In this document: piece after piece, positions 14,398 through 21,215 of the stretch
Numbering within the stretch: position 1 is the stretch's first letter
How the letters are laid out: every line of letters begins with the position of its first letter
NCBI GenBank assembly: GCA_016181305.1
Contig: JACOZN010000005.1
Span: forward strand, 5,323 to 69,322
Origin: Candidatus Woesearchaeota archaeon
GTDB lineage: Archaea > Nanobdellota > Nanobdellia > Woesearchaeales > GW2011-AR4
Direction: 5' to 3'
DNA length: 64,000 nucleotides
Position numbers and translations under genes: made by a program
The notes under the pieces: model-generated
Seen by the model: the letters and a program-made list of their open reading frames with translations, nothing else
What the model was told of the DNA's origin: nothing
Database searches by the model: none

Positions 14398-14922
14398 TCA
14401 TTCCCCCTCCAAATCAACCAAAGTAATCACTTTATACTTTTCTTCGAGCTTTTTCATCCCGCCCAGGTCAGGCAGCCCGATTATGAAGGCGCACTCGACA
14501 ACTTTGCCGCCTAGGCATTCAATTAGCTTGCATGCAGCCAAAGCGGTTCCTCCGGTTGCAATCAAATCATCAACAAGCAGAACCCTCGAGCCTTTTGGTA
14601 TTGCATCAACATGGACTTCAACAACTGCCCTTCCATACTCCAATTCATAACTTTCCTTTTCTGTCTTTGCAGGGAGCTTGCCTTCCTTCCTTATTGGCAC
14701 AAATCCCTTATGAAGCCTGTGGGCAATAGCGCCTCCAATAATAAACCCCCTGCTTTCAATTCCAGCGACCAAGTCAATGTGGTAGTTTTTGTATCTTTCA
14801 CAGAGCCTGTCAATTACATAGTTAAAGGCTTTCGCGTCTTTCAGCAATGTTGTAATGTCCCTGAACATTACTCCCTGCTTTGGCCAATTTGGGATTGTAC
14901 GAATGGATGATTTTAGGTCCAT
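14398..14922 (-). CDS. apt: Adenine phosphoribosyltransferase
   Basis: FRDITTLL, GIESRGF, RKEGKLP, YELEYG and VDDLIATGGT motifs. Confidence 0.97.
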   Translation of the reverse strand: MDLKSSIRTIPNWPKQGVMFRDITTLLKDAKAFNYVIDRLCERYKNYHIDLVAGIESRGFIIGGAIAHRLHKGFVPIRKEGKLPAKTEKESYELEYGRAVVEVHVDAIPKGSRVLLVDDLIATGGTALAACKLIECLGGKVVECAFIIGLPDLGGMKKLEEKYKVITLVDLEGE

Positions 14923-15010
14923 AATAAAATGGTTTTTTAGGGGGTATTTATAGTTTTTTGATTTTTGATTATGAATAAACTTTTAAATAATATTAGATTA
15001 CTATGCTCTA

Positions 15011-16142
15011 ATGCTCGTCAACAGCCAAAACTATCGCACTGTATGGATGCAGGATTCTTCTGTTTACTTGATAAACCAGCAGTTATTGCCGCATAAATTC
15101 GAGATTTATCAGGCAAAAAATCATCTTGAAACAGCCGATGCAATCAAGACAATGATTGTGAGGGGAGCGCCTGCGATCGGCGCAACAGGGGCTTTTGGGG
15201 GGAGCGCCTGCGATCGGCGCAACAGGGGCTTTTGGGGTTGCGCAGGCTGCTTTGGAATTTACAGGCAAAGATTTTGAAAATTTTAAAATTCATCTGAGGA
15301 AGGCTGAACAAGTCCTGAAATCAACAAGGCCGACTGCCAATGACTTATTTTTTGGAATTGATTTCGTAATGAAAAAAGCCCTTGACAATTTTGACGCCGA
15401 TATTGCAAAAAAATATGCGCTAAAAGCCGCGAATGAATACGCTGACTGGAGCGCTGAAATGTGCAGGCAGATAGGAGAGCACGGAAATAATCTAATAAAA
15501 AATAACCAGAACATTTTAACACACTGCAATGCAGGCGCCTTGGCCTGCGTTGATTTCGGCACTGCATTGTCACCTATAAGAATAGCCCATTACAGCAAAA
15601 AAAATATTTTTGTTTATGTAGATGAAACACGCCCAAGAAACCAGGGAGCTTCTTTGACAGCATGGGAGCTTGCTCAGGAAAAGATAAATCATGCGATAAT
15701 AGCTGACAACGCTGCAGGGCATTTCATGAAGCGTGGTAAAATTGACATGGTTATCGTGGGCGCTGACAGGATTGCGATGAACGGCGATGTGGCAAACAAG
15801 ATAGGCACTTATGAAAAGGCTGTTTTGGCAAAAGAAAACAATGTTACATTTTATGTTGCAGCGCCGTCATCAACTTTTGACATAAGCGCAAAAACCGGAG
15901 AGGATATCCCAATAGAGGAAAGGAGTGAAGATGAGATTCTGTACATGCATGGAATGGACGAAAAAGGCAATATAAATAAATTTAGAATATCACCTAAGGA
16001 AAGCACTGCAAAAAACCCTGCCTTTGATGTGACGCCGGCAAAATATATTACTGGAATAATAACTGAAAGGGGAGTTATAAAGCCGACAAAAGAGGAAATT
16101 GAGAGGTTTGTCGGGGGTAAAATAATTCAACAACCTTTATAA
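15011..16142 (+). pseudogene. mtnA: S-methyl-5-thioribose-1-phosphate isomerase, frameshifted by a 37-bp tandem duplication
   Basis: VRGAPAIG, RPTA, THCNAG.LA, DETRP, GADRI, NKIGTY and NPAFDVTP motifs, split across ORFs 15011-15277 and 15195-16142. Removing one repeat unit restores the frame. Confidence 0.92.
15164..15237 (+). repeat. Perfect 2 x 37-bp tandem duplication
   Basis: GGAGCGCCTGCGATCGGCGCAACAGGGGCTTTTGGGG at 15164-15200 and 15201-15237. Confidence 0.97.
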
Positions 16143-16173
16143 ACAATAGTTGTTTATCTAACATTGAAATAAA

Positions 16174-16983
16174 ATGGATTGGGGGATGAAGAACAGGCTG
16201 GCGAGGATTTTCAATCAAAAGAGCGGCAGGACTGTGATGCTTGCTGTTGACCACGGCTATTTTCAGGGCCCTACAACCGGATTAAAAAAGCCAAGGGAGA
16301 CAATAACCCCTTTGCTGCCTTACTCTGACTGCTTGTTTGTTACAAGGGGAGTTTTGAGAAATTGCATTGCTCCTGCAACAGGCACGCCAATATTTTTGAG
16401 GGTTTCCGGAGGCCCAAGCGTTCTGGGAGAGCTTTCAAACGAGGACATAACAACATCTATGAAAGAGGCGTTAAGGCTGAATGCAGCTGGAGTCGGGATT
16501 TCTATTTTTGTAGGAGAAAAAAACGAGGACAGGACTATATCAAACCTTGGCAGGCTGGTGAATGAGGCAGAGGAATACGGAATGCCTGTGCTTGCAATAA
16601 CAGCAGTTGGCAAGGAGATGGCAAGAGATGCAAGATATCTTGGACTGGCGTGCAGGATTGCTGCAGAGATTGGAGCGCATATGGTTAAGACCTATTATTG
16701 CGAGGAAGACTTTGAAAAGGTCGTTGAAGGCTGCCCTGTGCCGATTGTAATTGCAGGCGGAAAGAAGATTCCTGAAAAAGATGCCTTGCAGATGGCTTAT
16801 AATGCAATAAGCAAAGGCGCTGCAGGAGTTGACATGGGCAGGAATATTTTCCAATCAGAAAACCCGGTTGCAATGATGCAGGCAGTGAGGGCTGTTGTCC
16901 ATGATAATTATTCTGCTGATGAGGCTTTTGAAATGTTTAACAAATTGAAAGGGCAGAAAGTTGTTTCTAGTGTTGTGGAATAG
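16174..16983 (+). CDS. lsrF: LsrF-family thiolase (3-hydroxy-5-phosphonooxypentane-2,4-dione thiolase-like; class I aldolase fold)
   Basis: N-terminus DWGMKNRLARIF...VMLAVDHGYFQGPTTGL, VKTYY Schiff-base Lys, AGGKK and GVDMGRNIFQS. Confidence 0.92.
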   Translation: MDWGMKNRLARIFNQKSGRTVMLAVDHGYFQGPTTGLKKPRETITPLLPYSDCLFVTRGVLRNCIAPATGTPIFLRVSGGPSVLGELSNEDITTSMKEALRLNAAGVGISIFVGEKNEDRTISNLGRLVNEAEEYGMPVLAITAVGKEMARDARYLGLACRIAAEIGAHMVKTYYCEEDFEKVVEGCPVPIVIAGGKKIPEKDALQMAYNAISKGAAGVDMGRNIFQSENPVAMMQAVRAVVHDNYSADEAFEMFNKLKGQKVVSSVVE

Positions 16984-17020
16984 AAAGTTATTTATACAGG
17001 TATTTTGAAGAATAACTTTT

Positions 17021-17590
17021 GTGCTAAAAAACAAGAAAGCGGCATCATTCGGGACAATTGTCGCCATTTTTGGCTCTGTACTTATTGCTCTTGGCGTTGC
17101 CTGGCTTATTGCGCAAAATTGGCACCAGATGCCTGCACCGCTCAAAATTTTCATTCTTCTTGCGGCGACAAGCGGGGCTTACACAGCGGGCACGATACTT
17201 AGAGTTCGCGATTATCACGGCATTGGAAAGGCACTGCTTGTCCTGGGCGCATTGCTTTACACCCTAAGCATTTTTTTGATTGCGCAGATATACTCAACCA
17301 AAGTAACTTTTCAGGGGCAGGCTTGGCTATGGCTATTGGCTTGGGCTGGGATTTTTGCTGCTTCATATGGATTCCAGTCTTCGGCAAGCTATGTTGTTGC
17401 AGTAATCGAATACGGCATATGGGTTATTATCCAGACTTTCGCATTTTTTGAATCGGCAGGTTTATTTTCTGGAGGTGGTTATGGGCATGCTGTTCTTGCA
17501 TCATTTTTCATGGTTTCTGGAATTGCCTTAGCGCTAACAACCGGCTCAGCCTTATACCTTAAATGGAGGGAATCAAAATCGCCTGGCTAG
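17021..17590 (+). CDS. DUF2157-family membrane protein, N-terminal part
   Basis: GS.LIALGV..LIA.NW..MP...K and IFLIAQIY motifs; overlaps the next ORF in the -1 frame. Confidence 0.75.
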   Translation: MLKNKKAASFGTIVAIFGSVLIALGVAWLIAQNWHQMPAPLKIFILLAATSGAYTAGTILRVRDYHGIGKALLVLGALLYTLSIFLIAQIYSTKVTFQGQAWLWLLAWAGIFAASYGFQSSASYVVAVIEYGIWVIIQTFAFFESAGLFSGGGYGHAVLASFFMVSGIALALTTGSALYLKWRESKSPG

Positions 17591-18696
17591 GATACTTTGG
17601 ATACTTTGGAATATTCTTTTGGTTGATTTTTTTGATACCTGTAATAATAGTTGTGGCATGGTTTTTCTCTCGTAGGAAAACAACAAAAACATTTCAAGAT
17701 GCATTATATACCATCTATGGACTCTTATCGTCAAATATAATCTTCTGGCTTGCGCTTATGCTCCTTAGAATTTCAAAATTACAGCATGCAGTTTATGTTT
17801 TGCTTTTGGCAATGGTTGTAGTTGCAGTCATTGCTTACTATTTCCAATCATCTGGGAGCCTTATGCTGGCAATGTTAGAGCTTGTTACTTTAGTTATACT
17901 GCAATATGCAGCATTTATAGAAGCAAAAGAAGATTTTATCTCGCCGGGGTTCTTGGCATTTTACTTGCTCCTCGTAGGACTTATTCTTTATGGCTTAAGC
18001 TTGGTGCACAGGGCTATGAAGCACAAGTTTGGCAGGGTATTTCAGGAATGGAGCGCTTTTTATTTGCTTTTATTTAGCTATATTCTTTCCTTTCAGATTT
18101 TGCTGCCTTACTTATGGCCAAGCGAGTCAAAATCCACAACAGGAGCTGTAGCAATGCTGTTCATAATGGCTGTGCTGGCTATTGCTTCCTTGGTCATTGG
18201 AGTGATGGGCTCGGTAAGCAACAAATCTGTTCAAAACAGGGAAATAGGCTTATTTGTTGTTTTTGTGGTATTGCTGTCTTTGCTCATATGGGCTACTAGT
18301 TTTGTTTCTGATTCGCAAGCAGATTATGGCTATTATGGAAGAGGTCCTTCTGTTTCTGGCCCGCTGCTTTATGTGTGGATTTTCTCTAACACTATCTTTA
18401 TAGGAATAATTCTTGCAATAATCGGCTATGGAACATGGCAGAAAATTCCTAAGATAATCAATTTAGGCATATTATTCTTTGCCGTTGACATTATTACAAG
18501 ATATATTGGGTTTATAATGGACTATTGGGGTTACACAAGCCTTGCCATAATATTCATAAGCGGGGGGCTTATTTTGCTGGCAGGTGGATATGGAATAGAG
18601 AAATGGCGAAGGAGTTTAATAAGCAAGGCAAAATCGGGAACAATTCCACCATCTTCTAGGACTCCGCAATCAACTGCAAGATATACAAGAAAATGA
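17563..18696 (+). CDS. Polytopic membrane protein (C-terminal part of a DUF2157-type protein)
   Basis: About 11 TM helices. The ending RY...WGYTSLAIIFISGGLILLAGGYGIEKWRR is typical of this family. Confidence 0.7.
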   Translation: MEGIKIAWLGYFGYFGIFFWLIFLIPVIIVVAWFFSRRKTTKTFQDALYTIYGLLSSNIIFWLALMLLRISKLQHAVYVLLLAMVVVAVIAYYFQSSGSLMLAMLELVTLVILQYAAFIEAKEDFISPGFLAFYLLLVGLILYGLSLVHRAMKHKFGRVFQEWSAFYLLLFSYILSFQILLPYLWPSESKSTTGAVAMLFIMAVLAIASLVIGVMGSVSNKSVQNREIGLFVVFVVLLSLLIWATSFVSDSQADYGYYGRGPSVSGPLLYVWIFSNTIFIGIILAIIGYGTWQKIPKIINLGILFFAVDIITRYIGFIMDYWGYTSLAIIFISGGLILLAGGYGIEKWRRSLISKAKSGTIPPSSRTPQSTARYTRK

Positions 18697-19208
18697 ACCA
18701 GTATGCTCGCTTAATAATCGTTTTGGCAATACTTCTTGGTATATCGGGCACTTTTCTTCTTTATCTGGCATGGCCATCACTTACTGGACAAACAATTGTT
18801 CTGGCTTTAAGGCCAGTTGATCCCTTTGACCCTTTCAGGGGGCAGTATATAACTCTTAATTATGAGATAAATGCTATTCCCTCTGTTGATGGCGCAAAGG
18901 AAAGCGATGCAGTTTATATCTCCTTGAAGGAAGATGAAAACAAAATTTGGAGGTACGAATCAGCATCTTTGGAAAAACCGCAGCGAGGCATATTTATTAA
19001 AGGAACAATAAAATCAATTTATGGCGGCACAACGAGAGTTGAATATGGCATTGAGCAATTCTTCTTTGAAAGGCATGCGGAATTTCCCCAGCGCGATTTA
19101 ACCGTCGAAGTGAAAGTAAGCAGTTCCGGGCAGGCAAGAATATCCCAATTGCTGCATGAAGGCAATCCAATTAACATAACTTACAGAAAACCAAGCCTGA
19201 CTTCTTAA
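18693..19208 (+). CDS. GDYXXLXY domain membrane-anchored protein
   Basis: PVDPFDPFRGQYITLNY and YGIEQFF motifs; ATGA overlap with the upstream gene. Confidence 0.9.
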   Translation: MNQYARLIIVLAILLGISGTFLLYLAWPSLTGQTIVLALRPVDPFDPFRGQYITLNYEINAIPSVDGAKESDAVYISLKEDENKIWRYESASLEKPQRGIFIKGTIKSIYGGTTRVEYGIEQFFFERHAEFPQRDLTVEVKVSSSGQARISQLLHEGNPINITYRKPSLTS

Positions 19209-19248
19209 TCACAAAACCTTTTTATAAGCATTAAATATTCTTTTCTTT

Positions 19249-20274
19249 ATGAAAGTTGCAGTCTATTACAACAACAAGGATGTAAGGATAGAAGAGCGCC
19301 CAGTTCCGGCAATAAGCGACGGCGAGATTCTTGTAAAGGTAATTGCTTCAGGAATCTGCGGCAGCGATGTCATGGAGTGGTACAGGATAAAGAAAGCGCC
19401 TCTTGTCCTGGGGCATGAATTCAGCGGCGTTATTGAAAAAACCGGCAAAAATGTGAAAAATTTCAAGATTGGCGACAGGGTTATGGTTTCCCATCATGTG
19501 CCGTGCATGAAATGCCATTACTGCCTGAACAACCACCATACTGCATGCGAAACACTCCATAAGACAAACATTGAGCCCGGAGGATTCTCGGAATACATAA
19601 GAGTCCCGAAAATAAATGTTGAATTAGGGACTTTTAAGCTGCCAGATGATATTTCTTTTGAAGAAGGCACTTTTGTCGAGCCTGTTGGGACTACTATAAG
19701 AGCGCAGAGGCTGGCAAATTTAAACAATAACCAAACATTGCTTGTAATCGGAAGCGGCATCTCTGGATTAATGCATATAAAATTGGCAAAATCAAAAGGC
19801 GTCAAAAAAATAATCGCAGCTGACATTAATGAATACAGGCTGAATGCTGCAAAAAAATTCGGGGCGGATTTTGCTTTGGATGCAAATCAAGATTTAATTG
19901 AAAAAATAAAAGAAATAAACGAAGAAAGGCTGGCAGATTTGGTAATTGTATGCGCAGGCGCAATGCCGGCTGCAAAGCAAGCCTTCCAATGCGTTGACAA
20001 GGGCGGCACAATCATGTTTTTTGCAGTTCCTAAGCCCGATGAACATTTTGAAATTCCAATAAATGATTTCTGGAGGAATGAAATAAAAATAATGACTTCT
20101 TACGGCGCTGCGCCGGATGATTTAAAAGAGTCATTGGAACTGATTAAAAATAAAAAGATAAATGTTGCTGATATGATAACGCACAGATTAAAGTTTGATG
20201 AAATACAGAAGGGGTTTCAGTTGGTTGCTGAGGCTAAAGATTCTTTGAAGGTTATTGTTTACCCAAATAAATAA
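19249..20274 (+). CDS. Zn-dependent medium-chain dehydrogenase (polyol/iditol dehydrogenase-like)
   Basis: GICGSD, GHEFSG, structural Zn motif CxxCxxCx7C, GSGISG Rossmann motif, and AD (NAD-type). Confidence 0.93.
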   Translation: MKVAVYYNNKDVRIEERPVPAISDGEILVKVIASGICGSDVMEWYRIKKAPLVLGHEFSGVIEKTGKNVKNFKIGDRVMVSHHVPCMKCHYCLNNHHTACETLHKTNIEPGGFSEYIRVPKINVELGTFKLPDDISFEEGTFVEPVGTTIRAQRLANLNNNQTLLVIGSGISGLMHIKLAKSKGVKKIIAADINEYRLNAAKKFGADFALDANQDLIEKIKEINEERLADLVIVCAGAMPAAKQAFQCVDKGGTIMFFAVPKPDEHFEIPINDFWRNEIKIMTSYGAAPDDLKESLELIKNKKINVADMITHRLKFDEIQKGFQLVAEAKDSLKVIVYPNK

Positions 20275-20341
20275 AATGTGAATAAAAATACAATAAAAAC
20301 TAATTCGTGAAAAAATAATCCGATAATGAAAATAAAATCAA

Positions 20342-20399
20342 AAAATCACGAGAGCGACTTTTTGCTGCAAAAGTTATTAAAGTAATCCGCTTGTGATTT
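20342..20399 (+). repeat. 58-bp structured element, copy 1 (identical to 60139-60196)
   Basis: AAAATCACGAGAGCGACTTTTTGCTGCAAAAGTTATTAAAGTAATCCGCTTGTGATTT, with self-complementary ends. Confidence 0.95.
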
Positions 20400-20411
20400 T
20401 TTTATTAAAAA

Positions 20412-21215
20412 TCATTCTCCGCCAATCACCGCACTCTTTATATCTTCCCTGCACCGGCAGTCAATGTAATTTATTTTTGGAATGGCTTCAAGTAGCAATT
20501 TTTTCACATTCTCGGCATTCTTGCGCATTGTTTTCAAAATCATCCCGATATTGACGCCGTCTTCATGCGGATGCCAGACATCGAAGTCCGTTGACATCGC
20601 GACAATCGCATAGCAAATCCCAGCTTCCCTTGCCAAAACAACTTCTGGCACAGTGCTCATGTTGATGACATCAGCATTCCATTGCCTGTACATGTGGCTC
20701 TCTGCCTTTGTAGAAAATCTAGGTCCTTCAATTGTTACAACCGTGCCTTTCTTGTGATGCTCAAATTTCATCTCTTTTGCGGCTTCTGCAAGCAGTTCCC
20801 TTAATCTTTTGCAAAAAGGCTCTGCCATCGGAATGTGGCAGACTTTATCAGAATCATAAAAAGTTTGATGCCTTTTTGTTGTCCTGTCAATGAACTGGTC
20901 GCAGAAAACCAAATGCCCGGGCTTTATCTCCTCCCTCAAAGAGCCGCATGCAGTTGTTGCAATTATATGGGTGCAGCCCTGCTCTTTCAATGCCATTATG
21001 TTTGCCCTGTAATTGACATTGCTCGGCATTATTGTGTGCTTTTTGCCGTGTCTTGCCAGAATCACAACGTTAACATTCCCTATTTTGCCTATTACTAAAG
21101 CGCTTGAGGGGTTGCCGAATCCTGTTGTTGAATTTATTTCTCTTGCATCTTTCAGAATTCTCGGATCTTCCAATCCAGAGCCGCCAATTATGCCGATTTT
21201 TATTATCCCAACCAC
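20412..21215 (-). CDS. mtnP: S-methyl-5'-thioadenosine phosphorylase
   Basis: [41 protein letters not shown] and TDFD motifs; exact start uncertain. Confidence 0.96.

What the first reader, a model, noticed from the sequence alone, without database searches (positions are those of the whole stretch)
14398..21215. Candidate new salvage pathway: MtnP + MtnA + Zn-dehydrogenase + LsrF thiolase + Apt (oxidative-thiolytic DHAP shunt)
Seen in sequence: apt, mtnA, lsrF-like, a Zn/NAD dehydrogenase and mtnP are clustered. The window has no mtnB/C/D, no class II aldolase and no lsrK/lsrG/lsr transporter. Established: MtnP and MtnA convert 5'-deoxyadenosine or MTA to adenine plus 5-deoxy- (or 5-methylthio-)ribulose-1-phosphate, Apt recycles adenine, and the known DHAP shunt cleaves the sugar with a class II aldolase. 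E. coli LsrF converts 3-hydroxy-5-phosphonooxypentane-2,4-dione + CoA to DHAP + acetyl-CoA. Inference: oxidising C4-OH of 5-deoxyribulose-1-P gives exactly the LsrF substrate. The dehydrogenase would therefore bridge MtnA and LsrF, yielding NADH, DHAP and acetyl-CoA (or methylthioacetyl-CoA from MTA) instead of a free aldehyde. That would give LsrF a role unrelated to AI-2 and conserve energy in a fermenter. I do not know of a description of this route but cannot search the literature.
Basis: partly seen in the sequence, partly recalled or inferred. Interest (0 to 1): 0.92.

Follow-up and report, generated by a model that had tools for sequence, protein, structure and literature searches.

The report
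Dehydrogenase plus LsrF thiolase salvage route
A groundwater DPANN archaeon links the genes that recycle S-adenosylmethionine by-products to a dehydrogenase and an LsrF-type thiolase instead of the usual aldolase, and the same enzyme pair occurs in many bacterial and archaeal phyla, which points to an undescribed salvage route.

Summary
That genome has no class II aldolase, RuBisCO or lsrK/G/B/R.

Two corrections:
- The mtnA frameshift is a 37-nt tandem duplication that independent contigs of 3 of 4 runs lack.
- Three membrane genes separate lsrF from ZnDH here, but in relatives the two genes abut.

Main evidence:
- **Pairing:** 72 of the 80 best LsrF loci from other species carry a dehydrogenase gene beside lsrF on the same strand. 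63 are ZnDH-like, 8 are aldolase/SDR fusions and 1 is an SDR. Only 1 of 80 has lsr-operon context.
- **Co-distribution:** in 151 genomes of the window's order, ZnDH orthologues occur in 15 of 16 LsrF-positive genomes and 0 of 135 LsrF-negative ones. MtnA occurs in 14 of 16 against 13 of 135.
- **Displacement:** of 27 MtnA-positive genomes, 12 have LsrF only, 7 a class II aldolase only, 2 both and 6 neither.
- **Independent operons:** an Anaerolineaceae operon reads transporter-mtnA-mtnK-rpe-lsrF-ZnDH. A Binatia operon reads apt-lsrF-aldolase/SDR-mtnP.

The oxidative-thiolytic route is the best reading (about 0.6) but has no biochemical test. The energy-conservation claim is unsupported. No description was found in print.

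The parts
14398..14922 (-). apt, adenine phosphoribosyltransferase (174 aa). It is transcribed divergently from mtnA across an 88-nt spacer.
   Evidence: NF002634 scores 261 bits against a cut-off of 170, and TIGR01090 236 against 186. It holds the same position in 16 of 20 relatives' loci.
15011..15277 (+). mtnA, N-terminal piece (88 aa as assembled). The frame is lost after the duplicated 37 nt.
   Evidence: Residues 3-63 match MtnA models NF004326 and TIGR00512. The sequence was read.
15193..15229 (+). Second copy of a 37-nt tandem duplication (first copy 15156-15192) that splits mtnA. It is probably an assembly artefact or a minor variant.
   Evidence: the repeat finder reports 2 copies with 37-nt spacing. 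Exact contigs of X2, X3 and X4 join 15161 to 15199, skipping 37 nt. No exact contig spans the junction in 4 of 4 runs.
15195..16142 (+). mtnA, main piece (315 aa): 5-methylthioribose-1-P / 5-deoxyribose-1-P isomerase.
   Evidence: TIGR00512 scores 360.7 against 279. The R15P isomerase model TIGR00511 scores only 207 against 314. The gene is intact in relatives.
16174..16983 (+). LsrF orthologue (269 aa), 31 nt after mtnA. Its proposed role is CoA-dependent thiolysis of the 2,4-diketone to DHAP plus acetyl-CoA, or (methylthio)acetyl-CoA from MTA.
   Evidence: NF006081 scores 430 against 297. PDB 3gkf and 4p2v (LsrF) match at E 1e-99. Identity to E. coli LsrF is 57%. D26, H27, K172, G195, G196, D220, M221, G222 and R223 correspond to E. 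coli Asp57, His58, Lys203, Gly226, Gly227, Asp251, Met252, Gly253 and Arg254. It is the only DeoC-family protein in the genome.
17021..19208 (+). Three membrane-protein genes inserted between lsrF and the dehydrogenase: DUF2157 (17021-17590), a 377-aa polytopic protein (17563-18696) and GDYXXLXY (18693-19208). They are probably not part of the pathway.
   Evidence: Pfam PF09925 and PF14345. Among the 20 relatives' loci the trio is present only in L042 and L044; L078 is the same contig as L044. It is absent from the other 13 loci that hold both genes.
19249..20274 (+). Zn- and NAD-dependent medium-chain dehydrogenase (341 aa) of the polyol / threonine dehydrogenase type. Its proposed role is 5-deoxy- (or 5-methylthio-) ribulose-1-P 4-dehydrogenase.
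   Evidence: Pfam ADH_N plus ADH_zinc_N. The best PDB matches are ketose reductase 1e3j, sorbitol dehydrogenases, Tdh, galactitol-1-P 5-dehydrogenase and (R,R)-butanediol dehydrogenase. Invariant residues are C37, H56, E57 and E144; C86, C89, C92 and C100; G168, G170 and G173; and D192. Its profile matches LsrF in the order: 15 of 16 against 0 of 135.
20412..21215 (-). mtnP, 5'-methylthioadenosine (and presumably 5'-deoxyadenosine) phosphorylase (267 aa), convergent with the dehydrogenase gene.
   Evidence: TIGR01694 scores 323 against 275. It holds the same position in 14 of 20 relatives' loci.

Best explanation
The locus encodes a variant of the DHAP shunt for the SAM by-products 5'-deoxyadenosine and 5'-methylthioadenosine.

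1. MtnP phosphorolyses the nucleoside to adenine, which Apt recycles, and the 5-deoxy- or 5-methylthio-ribose-1-phosphate. This follows from family membership.
2. MtnA isomerises that product to the ribulose-1-phosphate. This also follows from family membership.
3. The NAD+-dependent Zn dehydrogenase oxidises the C4 hydroxyl, giving 3-hydroxy-2,4-pentanedione-5-phosphate or its 1-methylthio analogue. This step is inferred.
4. The LsrF orthologue forms a Schiff base through Lys172 and transfers the acyl group to CoA. The products are DHAP, taken up by the TIM encoded next to the window, and acetyl-CoA or (methylthio)acetyl-CoA. The activity is inferred from the characterised E. coli enzyme.

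In this scheme the dehydrogenase plus LsrF replace the class II aldolase Ald2/DrdA of the known shunt. The same two-gene module is widespread in Bacteria and Archaea outside any AI-2 (lsr) context.
For: **Gene identities and absences**
- The gene identities are confirmed.
- The 78%-complete genome has no class II aldolase, RuBisCO, LsrK/G/B/R or DHQ synthase II.
- It does have 8 radical-SAM genes and a spermidine-synthase homologue as sources of the by-products, and TIM as a sink for DHAP.

**LsrF orthology**
- The LsrF-like protein is 57% identical to E. coli LsrF.
- All nine ligand-binding and catalytic residues named by Diaz et al. 2009 are kept (passages; alignments).

**Synteny in the genus and order**
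- ZnDH lies on the lsrF strand within 3 kb in 15 of 20 relatives' loci. In 3 more the contig ends after lsrF, and 2 (L043, L047) lack it.
- mtnA lies within 3 kb of lsrF in 17 of the 20.

**Order sample of 151 genomes**
- LsrF is present in 16.
- The ZnDH orthologue is present in 15 of those 16 and in 0 of 135 others.
- MtnA scores over its cut-off in 14 of those 16 and in 13 of 135 others.
- Of the 27 MtnA-positive genomes, 12 have LsrF only, 7 PF00596 only, 2 both and 6 neither.
- The mtnA-class II aldolase clusters fetched carry no ZnDH or LsrF within 10 kb: 0 of 15 loci, L063-L077.
- In G101, ZnDH abuts mtnA while lsrF sits on another contig.

**Beyond the order**
- Of the best 80 of 591 LsrF loci from GTDB species genomes, 63 have a ZnDH homologue on the same strand. 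The gap is 300 nt or less in 52.
- 8 have a bifunctional aldolase/SDR and 1 has an SDR.
- 1 locus (L148) has lsr context.
- Unbiased clustering of neighbouring genes found no other broadly conserved neighbour.

**Independent links to SAM by-product salvage**
- L123 (Anaerolineaceae): sugar ABC transporter-mtnA-mtnK-rpe-like-lsrF-ZnDH, all on one strand.
- L125 (Binatia): apt-lsrF-aldolase/SDR-mtnP.
- L112 (Thermoplasmata): mtnA 1.6 kb from lsrF.

**Dehydrogenase type**
- The nearest solved relatives all oxidise secondary alcohols. They include CH3-CHOH- substrates (Tdh, butanediol dehydrogenase) and a phosphorylated polyol (GatD).
- Asp192 is invariant. Reading it as NAD+ preference rests on recall.
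Against: - No biochemical data exist. The thiolase chemistry and the order dehydrogenase-then-LsrF are inferred.
- Outside the window's order, mtnA, mtnK, mtnP or apt lie near lsrF in only 3 of 77 loci: L112, L123 and L125.
- 45 of 50 LsrF genomes have MtnA, but this figure has no proper background. In Nitrospirota MtnA scores over its cut-off in 145 of 151 genomes while LsrF is in 36 of 151, so co-occurrence there says nothing.
- G058 carries mtnA-class II aldolase-lsrF-ZnDH in one row, and G173 also has both modules. Eight loci pair LsrF with an aldolase/SDR fusion, and three carry an rpe-like gene. The simple four-step scheme does not need these extra parts.
- Two same-genus loci (L043, L047) have lsrF without ZnDH within 5 kb or more. 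Five of the 80 loci show no dehydrogenase next to lsrF.
- The window's LsrF lacks the N-terminal 31 residues that form the domain swap in E. coli LsrF.
- No ATP-yielding sink for acetyl-CoA was found.
- As assembled, mtnA is frameshifted.
Confidence: 0.6

Rival explanations
1. This is the ordinary DHAP shunt with a non-orthologous aldolase. The LsrF-like protein would act as a class I (Schiff-base) aldolase on 5-deoxy- or 5-methylthio-ribulose-1-P, giving DHAP plus acetaldehyde or methylthioacetaldehyde. The Zn dehydrogenase would then reduce the aldehyde to the alcohol.
For: - LsrF belongs to the DhnA class I aldolase fold. It keeps the Schiff-base lysine and the general-base aspartate used by FBP aldolases.
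- The bond cleaved is the same as in the thiolase reaction.
- LsrF and the class II aldolase are alternative partners of MtnA in the order.
- Zn-dependent medium-chain dehydrogenases include aldehyde reductases. AdhP-type models match at 123 bits.
- E. coli reduces the shunt's acetaldehyde to ethanol (passages of PMC10986504).
Against: - The protein is an LsrF orthologue scoring over the curated equivalog cut-off, not a generic aldolase.
- The dehydrogenase is tied to LsrF, not to the shunt. It is absent from all 7 MtnA-positive genomes that have only the class II aldolase, and from all 135 LsrF-negative genomes of the order sample.
- It is also absent from the 15 class II aldolase loci fetched.
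- A merely detoxifying reductase would not be expected beside lsrF in 72 of 80 loci across phyla.
- Its nearest solved relatives are secondary-alcohol and polyol dehydrogenases.
- This reading leaves the aldolase/SDR fusions next to lsrF redundant.
Confidence: 0.2
2. The LsrF-dehydrogenase pair is a general module for another methyl-keto or deoxy sugar phosphate, and it sits near mtnA in Woesearchaeales only by chance or through shared regulation. Candidate substrates are a 6-deoxyhexulose-1-phosphate, 1-deoxyxylulose-5-P, or a spontaneously formed diketone that needs repair.
For: - In 74 of 77 loci outside the order no SAM-salvage gene lies within 10 kb of lsrF.
- The partners include fusions of the rhamnulose-1-P aldolase/SDR family and rpe-like epimerases.
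- Oxidising C4 of 1-deoxyxylulose-5-P would also give the LsrF substrate (my own reasoning).
- In Nitrospirota, MtnA presence does not separate LsrF-positive from LsrF-negative genomes.
Against: - Four lineages independently place lsrF beside mtnA, mtnK, mtnP or apt: Woesearchaeales, Thermoplasmata L112, Anaerolineaceae L123 and Binatia L125.
- In the order, MtnA occurs in 14 of 16 LsrF-positive genomes against 13 of 135 others.
- LsrF-ZnDH occupies the slot of the aldolase that consumes the MtnA product.
- Archaea lack the DXP pathway (recalled).
- 27 of 45 MtnA-positive LsrF genomes have no PF00596 protein at all, so the MtnA product otherwise has no known consumer there.
Confidence: 0.12
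3. The genes serve unrelated housekeeping roles. The LsrF-like protein could be the glycolytic class I FBP aldolase, or the ADH synthase / DKFP route to aromatic amino acids. 'MtnA' could be ribose-1,5-bisphosphate isomerase of the AMP/RuBisCO pathway. The dehydrogenase could be threonine dehydrogenase.
For: - These are the nearest paralogous families.
- Conversion of dRu1P to DKFP was proposed for M. jannaschii (Beaudoin 2018 introduction, citing Miller 2014; passage).
- The LsrF-like gene is the only DeoC-family gene in this assembly.
Against: - The scores are under the curated cut-offs for FBA (124 against 430), ADH synthase (195 against 299), R15P isomerase (207 against 314) and Tdh (198 against 380; 196 against 458).
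- The genome shows no RuBisCO and no DHQ synthase II.
- At least 5 same-genus genomes hold a second, distant DhnA-type aldolase besides LsrF.
- Bacteria that carry the pair do not use the DKFP route (recalled).
Confidence: 0.04

Closest known systems
DHAP shunt / 5-deoxyribose salvage: MtnP or MtnK, MtnA, and the class II aldolase Ald2/DrdA (Beaudoin et al. 2018, passages read; E. coli papers PMC10986504 and PMC12632272, passages read)
   Same: The entry enzymes are the same (MTAP and MtnA; MtnK in L123). The substrates are the same (5'-dAdo and MTA, or 5-deoxyribose and MTR). DHAP is a product in both. The cluster layout with apt or sugar transporters is also shared.
   Different: No class II aldolase is present. 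Its slot is taken by two genes, a dehydrogenase and LsrF. The predicted second product is an acyl-CoA plus NADH rather than a free aldehyde. The published descriptions I read mention no thiolase, acetyl-CoA-forming cleavage or class I enzyme.
Lsr AI-2 processing in enterobacteria: LsrK kinase, LsrG isomerase and LsrF thiolase (E. coli K-12 lsr operon; Marques et al. 2014, not held, recalled)
   Same: LsrF is an orthologue: NF006081 over its cut-off, 57% identity and all named active-site residues kept. The predicted LsrF substrate and products are the same.
   Different: The genome has no lsrK, lsrG, lsrR or lsrACDB. A dehydrogenase, not LsrG, would make the diketone. The N-terminal swapped segment of E. 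coli LsrF is missing. In a quick tree the lsr-type LsrFs (E. coli, L148) fall inside a starred 13-row group whose other members pair with dehydrogenases.
Threonine cleavage by Tdh plus Kbl (recalled textbook pathway)
   Same: The logic is the same. A Zn/NAD medium-chain dehydrogenase oxidises a CH3-CHOH- group to a methyl ketone. A second enzyme then removes the acetyl group onto CoA. Tdh structures are among the closest to the ZnDH.
   Different: The substrate here is a ketose phosphate, not an amino acid. The second enzyme is a Schiff-base TIM-barrel protein, not the PLP-dependent Kbl. The ZnDH scores under the Tdh cut-offs.
Bifunctional rhamnulose-1-phosphate aldolase / short-chain dehydrogenase family (NF006192, NF006194, TIGR02632)
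   Same: Members of this family sit next to lsrF in 8 of 80 loci, where the ZnDH would otherwise be. Examples are L137 (766 bits against 686) and L156 (704 against 639).
   Different: This family is not present in the window. What its aldolase-like domain would do beside LsrF is unexplained.
M. jannaschii ADH synthase MJ0400 and the proposed dRu1P-to-DKFP route (PDB 2qjg; proposal cited in Beaudoin 2018)
   Same: It is the nearest paralogous family (149 bits to 2qjg). It also handles a methyl-keto sugar phosphate and was also linked to 5'-deoxyadenosine recycling in an archaeon.
   Different: The window protein scores under the ADH synthase cut-off. The genome shows no DHQ synthase II. The reaction proposed here is a different one.

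Membership tests
LsrF, 3-hydroxy-5-phosphonooxypentane-2,4-dione thiolase (NCBIfam NF006081) | Score over the curated equivalog cut-off, and higher than for the paralogous families | tested here: met
   The score is 430.4 bits against a cut-off of 297. ADH synthase scores 195 against 299 and archaeal FBA 124 against 430. PDB LsrF chains match at E 1e-99.
LsrF, 3-hydroxy-5-phosphonooxypentane-2,4-dione thiolase (NCBIfam NF006081) | Schiff-base Lys203, general acid/base Asp57, the phosphate site His58/Gly226/Gly227/Gly253/Arg254, and Asp251/Met252 (E. coli numbering; Diaz 2009 passages) | tested here: met
   Window residues K172, D26, H27, G195, G196, G222, R223, D220 and M221 align to these positions. 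All are invariant in the six-member family alignment A2.
LsrF, 3-hydroxy-5-phosphonooxypentane-2,4-dione thiolase (NCBIfam NF006081) | CoA-dependent acetyl transfer from the diketone, giving DHAP plus acetyl-CoA | not testable with these tools
   This needs an enzyme assay. The primary paper (Marques 2014) was not held.
Lsr AI-2 uptake and processing system | LsrK kinase, LsrG isomerase, LsrACDB transporter and LsrR repressor together with LsrF | tested here: not met
   tblastn with the E. coli K-12 proteins found no LsrK, R, B, C, D or G in the 78%-complete genome, only generic ABC ATPases. Only 1 of 80 related loci (L148) has this context.
DHAP shunt (MtnP/MtnK + MtnA + Ald2/DrdA) | MTA/5'-dAdo phosphorylase or MTR kinase | tested here: met
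   MTAP scores TIGR01694 323 against 275.
DHAP shunt (MtnP/MtnK + MtnA + Ald2/DrdA) | MTR-1-P / 5-deoxyribose-1-P isomerase MtnA | tested here: met
   TIGR00512 scores 360.7 against 279 for the C-terminal piece alone. The frameshift is absent from exact contigs of 3 of 4 runs.
DHAP shunt (MtnP/MtnK + MtnA + Ald2/DrdA) | Class II (metal-dependent) fuculose-1-P-type aldolase that cleaves the ribulose-1-P | tested here: not met
   PF00596 gives 0 matches in the genome at 78% completeness, while the control rings in 11 of 14 known genomes. It was also not found in the 2 other genomes of the window's family in the order sample.
Canonical methionine salvage (MtnB/C/D) | MtnB dehydratase (PF00596 family) | tested here: not met
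   PF00596 is absent. MtnC and MtnD were not searched for separately.
L-threonine 3-dehydrogenase (TIGR00692 / NF003808) | Score over the curated cut-off | tested here: not met
   The scores are 196 against 458 and 198 against 380. LsrF-linked dehydrogenases from L092, L096, L104 and L155 score likewise.
Zn-dependent medium-chain dehydrogenase/reductase superfamily | Catalytic Zn ligands (Cys, His, Glu), a structural Zn Cys4 site and the Rossmann GxGxxG motif | tested here: met
   C37, H56, E57 and E144; C86, C89, C92 and C100; G168, G170 and G173. All are invariant in 46 LsrF-linked dehydrogenases. Pfam ADH_N plus ADH_zinc_N match.
Ribose-1,5-bisphosphate isomerase / archaeal AMP-RuBisCO pathway | The e2b2 equivalog score and a form III RuBisCO | tested here: not met
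   TIGR00511 scores 207 against 314. PF00016 gives 0 matches.

The most novel reading that the evidence does not exclude
The main and older role of the LsrF family across Bacteria and Archaea would be to dispose of the radical-SAM and polyamine by-products 5'-deoxyadenosine and MTA, not to process AI-2. The route would be a dehydrogenase-coupled, CoA-dependent cleavage of 5-deoxy- or 5-methylthio-ribulose-1-phosphate.

The groups concerned include ammonia-oxidising Nitrososphaerota, Nitrospirota, Desulfobacterota, Omnitrophota, Acidobacteriota, Thermoplasmata and DPANN archaea.

Two consequences would follow:
- The enterobacterial AI-2 function would be a late recruitment of this enzyme, with LsrG replacing the dehydrogenase as the maker of the diketone.
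- The pair would be the missing consumer of the MtnA product in the many genomes that have MtnA but no MtnB- or Ald2-type enzyme.
Probability: 0.45. Interest if true: 0.92.

Novelty: new variant of a known kind. Interest (0 to 1): 0.85.

Why it matters
- **A gap in core metabolism.** Every cell that uses radical-SAM enzymes must remove 5'-deoxyadenosine. The only proven recycling route, the DHAP shunt, needs a class II aldolase that many genomes lack. In the 50 LsrF genomes searched, 27 of the 45 with MtnA have no PF00596 protein at all.
- **What the new route would add.** A dehydrogenase-plus-thiolase route would fill that gap. It would define a new enzyme activity, a ketose-1-phosphate 4-dehydrogenase. 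It would yield acyl-CoA instead of a toxic aldehyde.
- **Annotation.** It would change how 'lsrF' is read in hundreds of genomes. For example, lsrF in nearly all marine ammonia-oxidising archaea has been read as a quorum-sensing gene (mLife 2024, passages).
- **Testability.** Four soluble enzymes and commercially or enzymatically available substrates suffice for a direct test.

Tried and rejected
- **AMP/RuBisCO pentose-bisphosphate pathway.** Rejected as the meaning of 'MtnA + phosphorylase'. There is no RuBisCO and the e2b2 model scores under its cut-off.
- **DKFP / aromatic amino-acid route.** Rejected for this organism, because it has no DHQ synthase II.
- **LsrF as the glycolytic aldolase.** Rejected on its score and on the second DhnA-type aldolases seen in same-genus genomes.
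- **Energy conservation via acetyl-CoA.** No ACD, acetate kinase or PFOR was found. There is only a weak thiolase-like match. This is left as unsupported, since the genome is 78% complete.
- **Replicate of the co-occurrence test in Nitrospirota.** It proved uninformative. MtnA scores over its cut-off in 145 of 151 genomes whether or not LsrF is present (36 of 151).
- **Riboswitch link to SAM.** Rfam at gathering thresholds gave 0 matches on 14 of the 80 loci (97.5 kb). I picked the shorter bacterial loci and those from Firmicutes, Actinobacteria and Chloroflexi.
- **The search for homologous proteins with LsrF.** It returned only near relatives (81-96% identity). Its use was limited to the source names (Woesearchaeota / Nanoarchaeota).
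- **Phosphate-binding residues in the dehydrogenase.** The type-specific conserved residues R13, W44, Y45 and R46 could not be placed in space, so no claim is made.
- **Literature search.** The terms were badly chosen (acetyl-CoA with CoA-dependent) and it is not used.
- **Literature not seen.** Supplementary files of papers were closed. Beaudoin 2018's supplementary cluster figures and its SEED subsystem might list variant clusters that I could not see. North et al. 2017/2020 and Miller et al. 2014/2018 were not read.

Full report
**What is in the window**

The stretch 14398-21215 holds nine genes.

| Coordinates | Strand | Gene | Evidence |
|---|---|---|---|
| 14398-14922 | - | apt | NF002634, 261 bits against a cut-off of 170 |
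| 15011-15277 and 15195-16142 | + | mtnA, in two pieces | TIGR00512, 360.7 against 279 for the long piece |
| 16174-16983 | + | LsrF orthologue | NF006081, 430 against 297 |
| 17021-17590 | + | DUF2157 membrane protein | PF09925 |
| 17563-18696 | + | 377-aa membrane protein | no family match |
| 18693-19208 | + | GDYXXLXY protein | PF14345 |
| 19249-20274 | + | Zn/NAD medium-chain dehydrogenase (ZnDH) | ADH_N plus ADH_zinc_N; under every NCBIfam cut-off |
| 20412-21215 | - | mtnP | TIGR01694, 323 against 275 |

The six plus-strand genes are separated by 40 nt or less, or they overlap. This fits one transcription unit, which is my inference from the coordinates.

The window lies on contig C5 of an assembly of 1.07 Mb in 22 contigs, 78% complete. 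Public sources label near-identical LsrF proteins as Woesearchaeota or Nanoarchaeota. The four runs that hold more than half of the sampled words of the stretch are groundwater metagenomes of one study.

**The broken mtnA**

The gene is split by an exact 37-nt tandem duplication. I laid the contigs of four runs on 14900-15500.
- Exact contigs of X2, X3 and X4, with no other differing letters, join 15161 to 15199 and so skip 37 nt.
- A contig of X1 starts at 15199, preceded by letters of the left flank.
- No exact contig spans the copy-to-copy junction in any of the four runs.

De Bruijn contigs can collapse a tandem copy, and the runs may include the source sample. I therefore call the frameshift "probably an assembly artefact or minor variant", not disproved. 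mtnA is uninterrupted at this point in most relatives, although some loci show split matches.

**Genome-wide absences and presences (78% complete, so absences are provisional)**

| Feature searched | Result |
|---|---|
| PF00596 class II aldolase/dehydratase (MtnB, Ald2, DrdA, FucA) | none |
| RuBisCO | none |
| LsrK, LsrR, LsrB, LsrC, LsrD, LsrG (tblastn with the E. coli K-12 proteins) | none |
| DHQ synthase II | none |
| ADP-forming acetyl-CoA synthetase, PFOR, acetate kinase | none |
| Radical-SAM genes | 8 |
| Spermidine-synthase homologue | present |
| TIM, just upstream of the window | present |
| DeoC-family genes | one, the LsrF gene |

**Is the LsrF-like protein a real LsrF?**

It is 57% identical to E. 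coli LsrF and matches PDB LsrF chains at E 1e-99. Diaz et al. 2009 (passages) name these residues:
- Lys203 as the Schiff-base lysine;
- Asp57 as the acid/base;
- His58, Gly226, Gly227, Gly253 and Arg254 as the phosphate site;
- Asp251 and Met252 as mobile site residues.

With an offset of 31, these are K172, D26, H27, G195, G196, G222, R223, D220 and M221 in the window protein. All are invariant in a six-member alignment of family representatives that are 46-57% identical to the window protein. The window protein lacks the first 31 residues of the E. coli enzyme, which form its domain swap. The thiolase activity itself is known to me from the RefSeq product name, from review passages and from recall of Marques et al. 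2014, which was not held.

**Synteny in the genus and order**

LsrF scores over its cut-off in 28 of 61 genomes of a 'relatives' draw. That count includes G000 and 24 of the 36 other genomes of the genus. I fetched 20 loci with up to 10 kb on each side.
- mtnA lies within 3 kb of lsrF in 17 of the 20.
- ZnDH lies on the lsrF strand within 3 kb in 15 of the 20.
- In 3 loci the contig ends soon after lsrF.
- 2 loci (L043 and L047) have no ZnDH nearby.
- The membrane-gene trio occurs only in the window, L042 and L044.
- In L033, L035 and L046, lsrF and ZnDH are 45-48 nt apart.

**The class II aldolase contrast**

A PF00596 search of 151 genomes of the order found 22 with a match. I fetched 15 of those loci.
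- mtnA directly abuts the class II aldolase in 4 of the 15: L063, L067, L072 and L075.
- It lies 1.3 kb away in L073 and 5.4 kb away in L064.
- None of the 15 holds LsrF or ZnDH.
- G058 (L049) is the exception. It reads mtnA, class II aldolase, lsrF, ZnDH in one row.

**Phylogenetic profiles in the same 151 genomes**

| Test | In the 16 LsrF-positive genomes | In the 135 LsrF-negative genomes |
|---|---|---|
| MtnA over its cut-off (27 genomes in all) | 14 | 13 |
| ZnDH orthologue (E 1e-60 or better; 15 genomes in all) | 15 | 0 |

- The two LsrF-positive genomes without MtnA are G037, where the contig ends beside lsrF, and G177, which is 59% complete.
- The LsrF-positive genome without a ZnDH orthologue is G140, where lsrF lies at a contig start.
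- The LsrF-positive genomes span 13 family codes.
- Of the 27 MtnA-positive genomes, 12 have LsrF only, 7 PF00596 only, 2 both (G058, G173) and 6 neither.
- In G101, ZnDH sits 42 nt from mtnA while lsrF is on another contig.
- G168, G148 and G157 are unpublished genomes. The counts without them are given under Tried and rejected.
- Related genomes are not independent, so I attach no P-value.

**Beyond the order**

An HMMER scan of 1.84 billion cluster representatives shows a compact family: 237 representatives at E 1e-30 or better, few of them full-length. A pattern scan of one genome per GTDB species found 591 confirmed relatives and returned the 80 most like the window's LsrF, at 60-90% identity. 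This choice favours non-enteric LsrFs. The organism labels cover:
- Nitrospirota, Nitrososphaerota and Thermoplasmata;
- Omnitrophota, Acidobacteriota and Thermodesulfobacteriota / 'Deltaproteobacteria';
- Myxococcota, Chloroflexota, Bacillota and Actinomycetota;
- Planctomycetota, Binatota, Poribacteria, Ignavibacteriota and Elusimicrobiota;
- Jordarchaeia, Undinarchaeota and others.

| Neighbour of lsrF, same strand | Loci (of 80) |
|---|---|
| ZnDH homologue | 63 |
| Bifunctional aldolase/short-chain dehydrogenase | 8 |
| Stand-alone SDR (L089) | 1 |
| lsrR-A-C-D-B-K context (L148) | 1 |
| Contig edge (L113, L120) | 2 |
| No dehydrogenase adjacent (L095, L109, L112, L141, L150) | 5 |

Details of the 63 ZnDH loci:
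- The gap is 300 nt or less in 52 and 1500 nt or less in 61.
- ZnDH is downstream in 37 and upstream in 26.
- 44 are at least 46% identical to the window's ZnDH. 19 are at most 41% identical; these are Nitrososphaerota plus one Thermoplasmata locus.

For the aldolase/SDR fusions, L137 scores NF006194 766 against 686 and L156 scores NF006192 704 against 639. Unbiased clustering of all ORFs within 6 kb found no other neighbour shared by more than 13 loci.

**Links to SAM by-product salvage outside the order**

These links are few but independent.
- **L123 (Anaerolineaceae):** RbsB-like binding protein, ABC ATPase, permease, mtnA, mtnK (TIGR01767, 508 against 275), rpe-like (TIGR01163, 237 against 213), lsrF, ZnDH, all on one strand.
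- **L125 (Binatia):** apt, lsrF, aldolase/SDR, mtnP (TIGR01694, 305 against 275) on one strand.
- **L112 (Thermoplasmata):** mtnA 1.6 kb upstream of lsrF.

Rpe-like genes also flank lsrF in L133 and L152.

At genome level, 45 of the 50 LsrF genomes I picked for taxonomic spread from the 77 non-Woesearchaeal loci have MtnA over its cut-off. 31 of the 50 have no PF00596 protein, including 27 of the 45 with MtnA. The 45 of 50 lacks a proper background. In a Nitrospirota sample, MtnA scores over its cut-off in 145 of 151 genomes and LsrF in 36 of 151, so co-occurrence there tells nothing.

**The dehydrogenase**

Forty-six LsrF-linked dehydrogenases share the following invariant residues:
- C37, H56, E57 and E144, the catalytic zinc site;
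- C86, C89, C92 and C100, the structural zinc site;
- G168, G170 and G173;
- D192. That an Asp at this position signals NAD+ preference is recalled.

The nearest solved structures are ketose reductase, sorbitol dehydrogenases, threonine dehydrogenases, galactitol-1-phosphate 5-dehydrogenase and (R,R)-butanediol dehydrogenase. All oxidise secondary alcohols. Some act on CH3-CHOH- ends and one acts on a phosphorylated polyol. Five LsrF-linked dehydrogenases from different phyla all fall under the Tdh cut-offs.

**How it most likely works**

MtnP and MtnA make 5-deoxy- or 5-methylthio-ribulose-1-P; this follows from family membership. On paper, oxidising its C4 hydroxyl gives CH2OP-CO-CHOH-CO-CH3. 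This is 3-hydroxy-2,4-pentanedione-5-phosphate, the substrate of E. coli LsrF. LsrF would then hand the acetyl group to CoA and release DHAP.

I prefer this order, dehydrogenase first, over the rival in which LsrF acts as an aldolase and the dehydrogenase as an aldehyde reductase. The reasons are:
- The dehydrogenase follows LsrF, not the shunt. Its orthologue is in 15 of 16 LsrF-positive genomes against 0 of 135, it is in none of the 7 genomes that have only the class II aldolase, and it is in none of the 15 aldolase loci.
- At least three kinds of dehydrogenase have been recruited beside lsrF.
- The protein is a true LsrF orthologue.
- In the lsr operon the gene next to lsrF is lsrG, the enzyme that makes the diketone.

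The rival is not excluded, because the bond cleaved and the Schiff-base chemistry are the same in both readings. Three things remain unexplained: the co-occurrence of the class II aldolase with lsrF-ZnDH in G058 and G173, the aldolase/SDR fusions, and the rpe-like genes. They may point to an epimerisation step or to separate handling of the sulfur and deoxy substrates, which is speculation.

**Family tree**

I built a quick IQ-TREE of 89 LsrF rows with SH-aLRT support only. The outgroup was not monophyletic, so the root is unsure.
- The window's clade groups with Nitrospirota LsrFs (98).
- E. coli LsrF and L148 fall inside a 13-row group (99) whose other members pair with ZnDH or aldolase/SDR.

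This fits, but does not prove, a late recruitment of LsrF to AI-2 processing.

**Is it in print?**

| Search | Result |
|---|---|
| LsrF + 5-deoxyribose | 0 papers |
| DHAP shunt + class I aldolase | 0 papers |
| 5-deoxyribulose + thiolase | 0 papers |
| LsrF + methylthioadenosine | 33 papers; none of the 20 listed is relevant, and several appear to be unrelated matches to the string |
| LsrF within a radical-SAM / deoxyadenosine / DHAP-shunt set | no occurrence in any of the 40 listed of 212 |
| 5-deoxyribose + acetyl-CoA | 3 papers, 2 listed as one work; they discuss AdhE acting on acetaldehyde |

- The 2025 J Bacteriol DHAP-shunt paper mentions no thiolase, acetyl-CoA or archaea.
- Beaudoin 2018 searched only for class II aldolase trios.
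- A 2024 paper reads lsrF of ammonia-oxidising archaea as an AI-2 gene.
- Subscription papers, supplements and the SEED subsystem were not visible to me.

**Verdict**

It is not tested biochemically, and its energy-conservation part is not supported. The route appears to be an undescribed variant of the DHAP shunt with a new predicted enzyme activity and a wide distribution.

Noticed in passing
window 17021-19208: A three-gene membrane module (DUF2157, a 377-aa polytopic protein and a GDYXXLXY protein) is inserted between lsrF and the dehydrogenase gene. Among the 20 relatives' loci it recurs as a unit only in L042 and L044. Its function is unknown.
   Followed up: partly
L078 and L102 (genome contigs record titles): Two contigs labelled 'uncultured Methanosarcinales archaeon' carry the Woesearchaeales-type apt/mtnA/lsrF/ZnDH/mtnP locus. 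They coincide with loci L044 (G035) and L050 (G045) of the window's order, so the public labels look wrong.
   Followed up: no
LsrF tree: window clade plus L080-L088: The Woesearchaeales LsrFs group with Nitrospirota LsrFs (SH-aLRT 98, 73-76% identity) rather than with other archaeal ones. This suggests transfer of the lsrF-ZnDH module between groundwater archaea and bacteria.
   Followed up: partly
L123:9301-9966, L133:1905-2537, L152:1624-2268: A ribulose-phosphate 3-epimerase-like gene lies directly beside lsrF in three unrelated bacterial loci. This hints at an epimerisation of the ketose-1-phosphate before oxidation.
   Followed up: partly
Nitrososphaerota loci such as L113-L116, L128, L129, L134, L153 and L155: In ammonia-oxidising archaea the ZnDH-like/lsrF pair lies directly upstream of ilvB, ilvN, leuA and a leuB-like gene (Pfam TPP_enzyme, ALS_ss_C, HMGL-like and Iso_dh). 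I cannot tell whether this is mere synteny within the clade or a functional link.
   Followed up: no
G000:C5:4160-4897 (just upstream of the window): The triose-phosphate isomerase gene lies on the same contig, about 15 kb from the salvage locus. The genome search found no PFOR, ACD or acetate kinase, so the source and fate of acetyl-CoA in this organism are unclear.
   Followed up: partly
L066 (G165): A distant class II aldolase-family gene (29% identical to the G058 one) sits next to mtnP and apt, while this genome's IF-2B-family match is under the MtnA cut-off. This may be a third arrangement of the salvage genes in the order.
   Followed up: no
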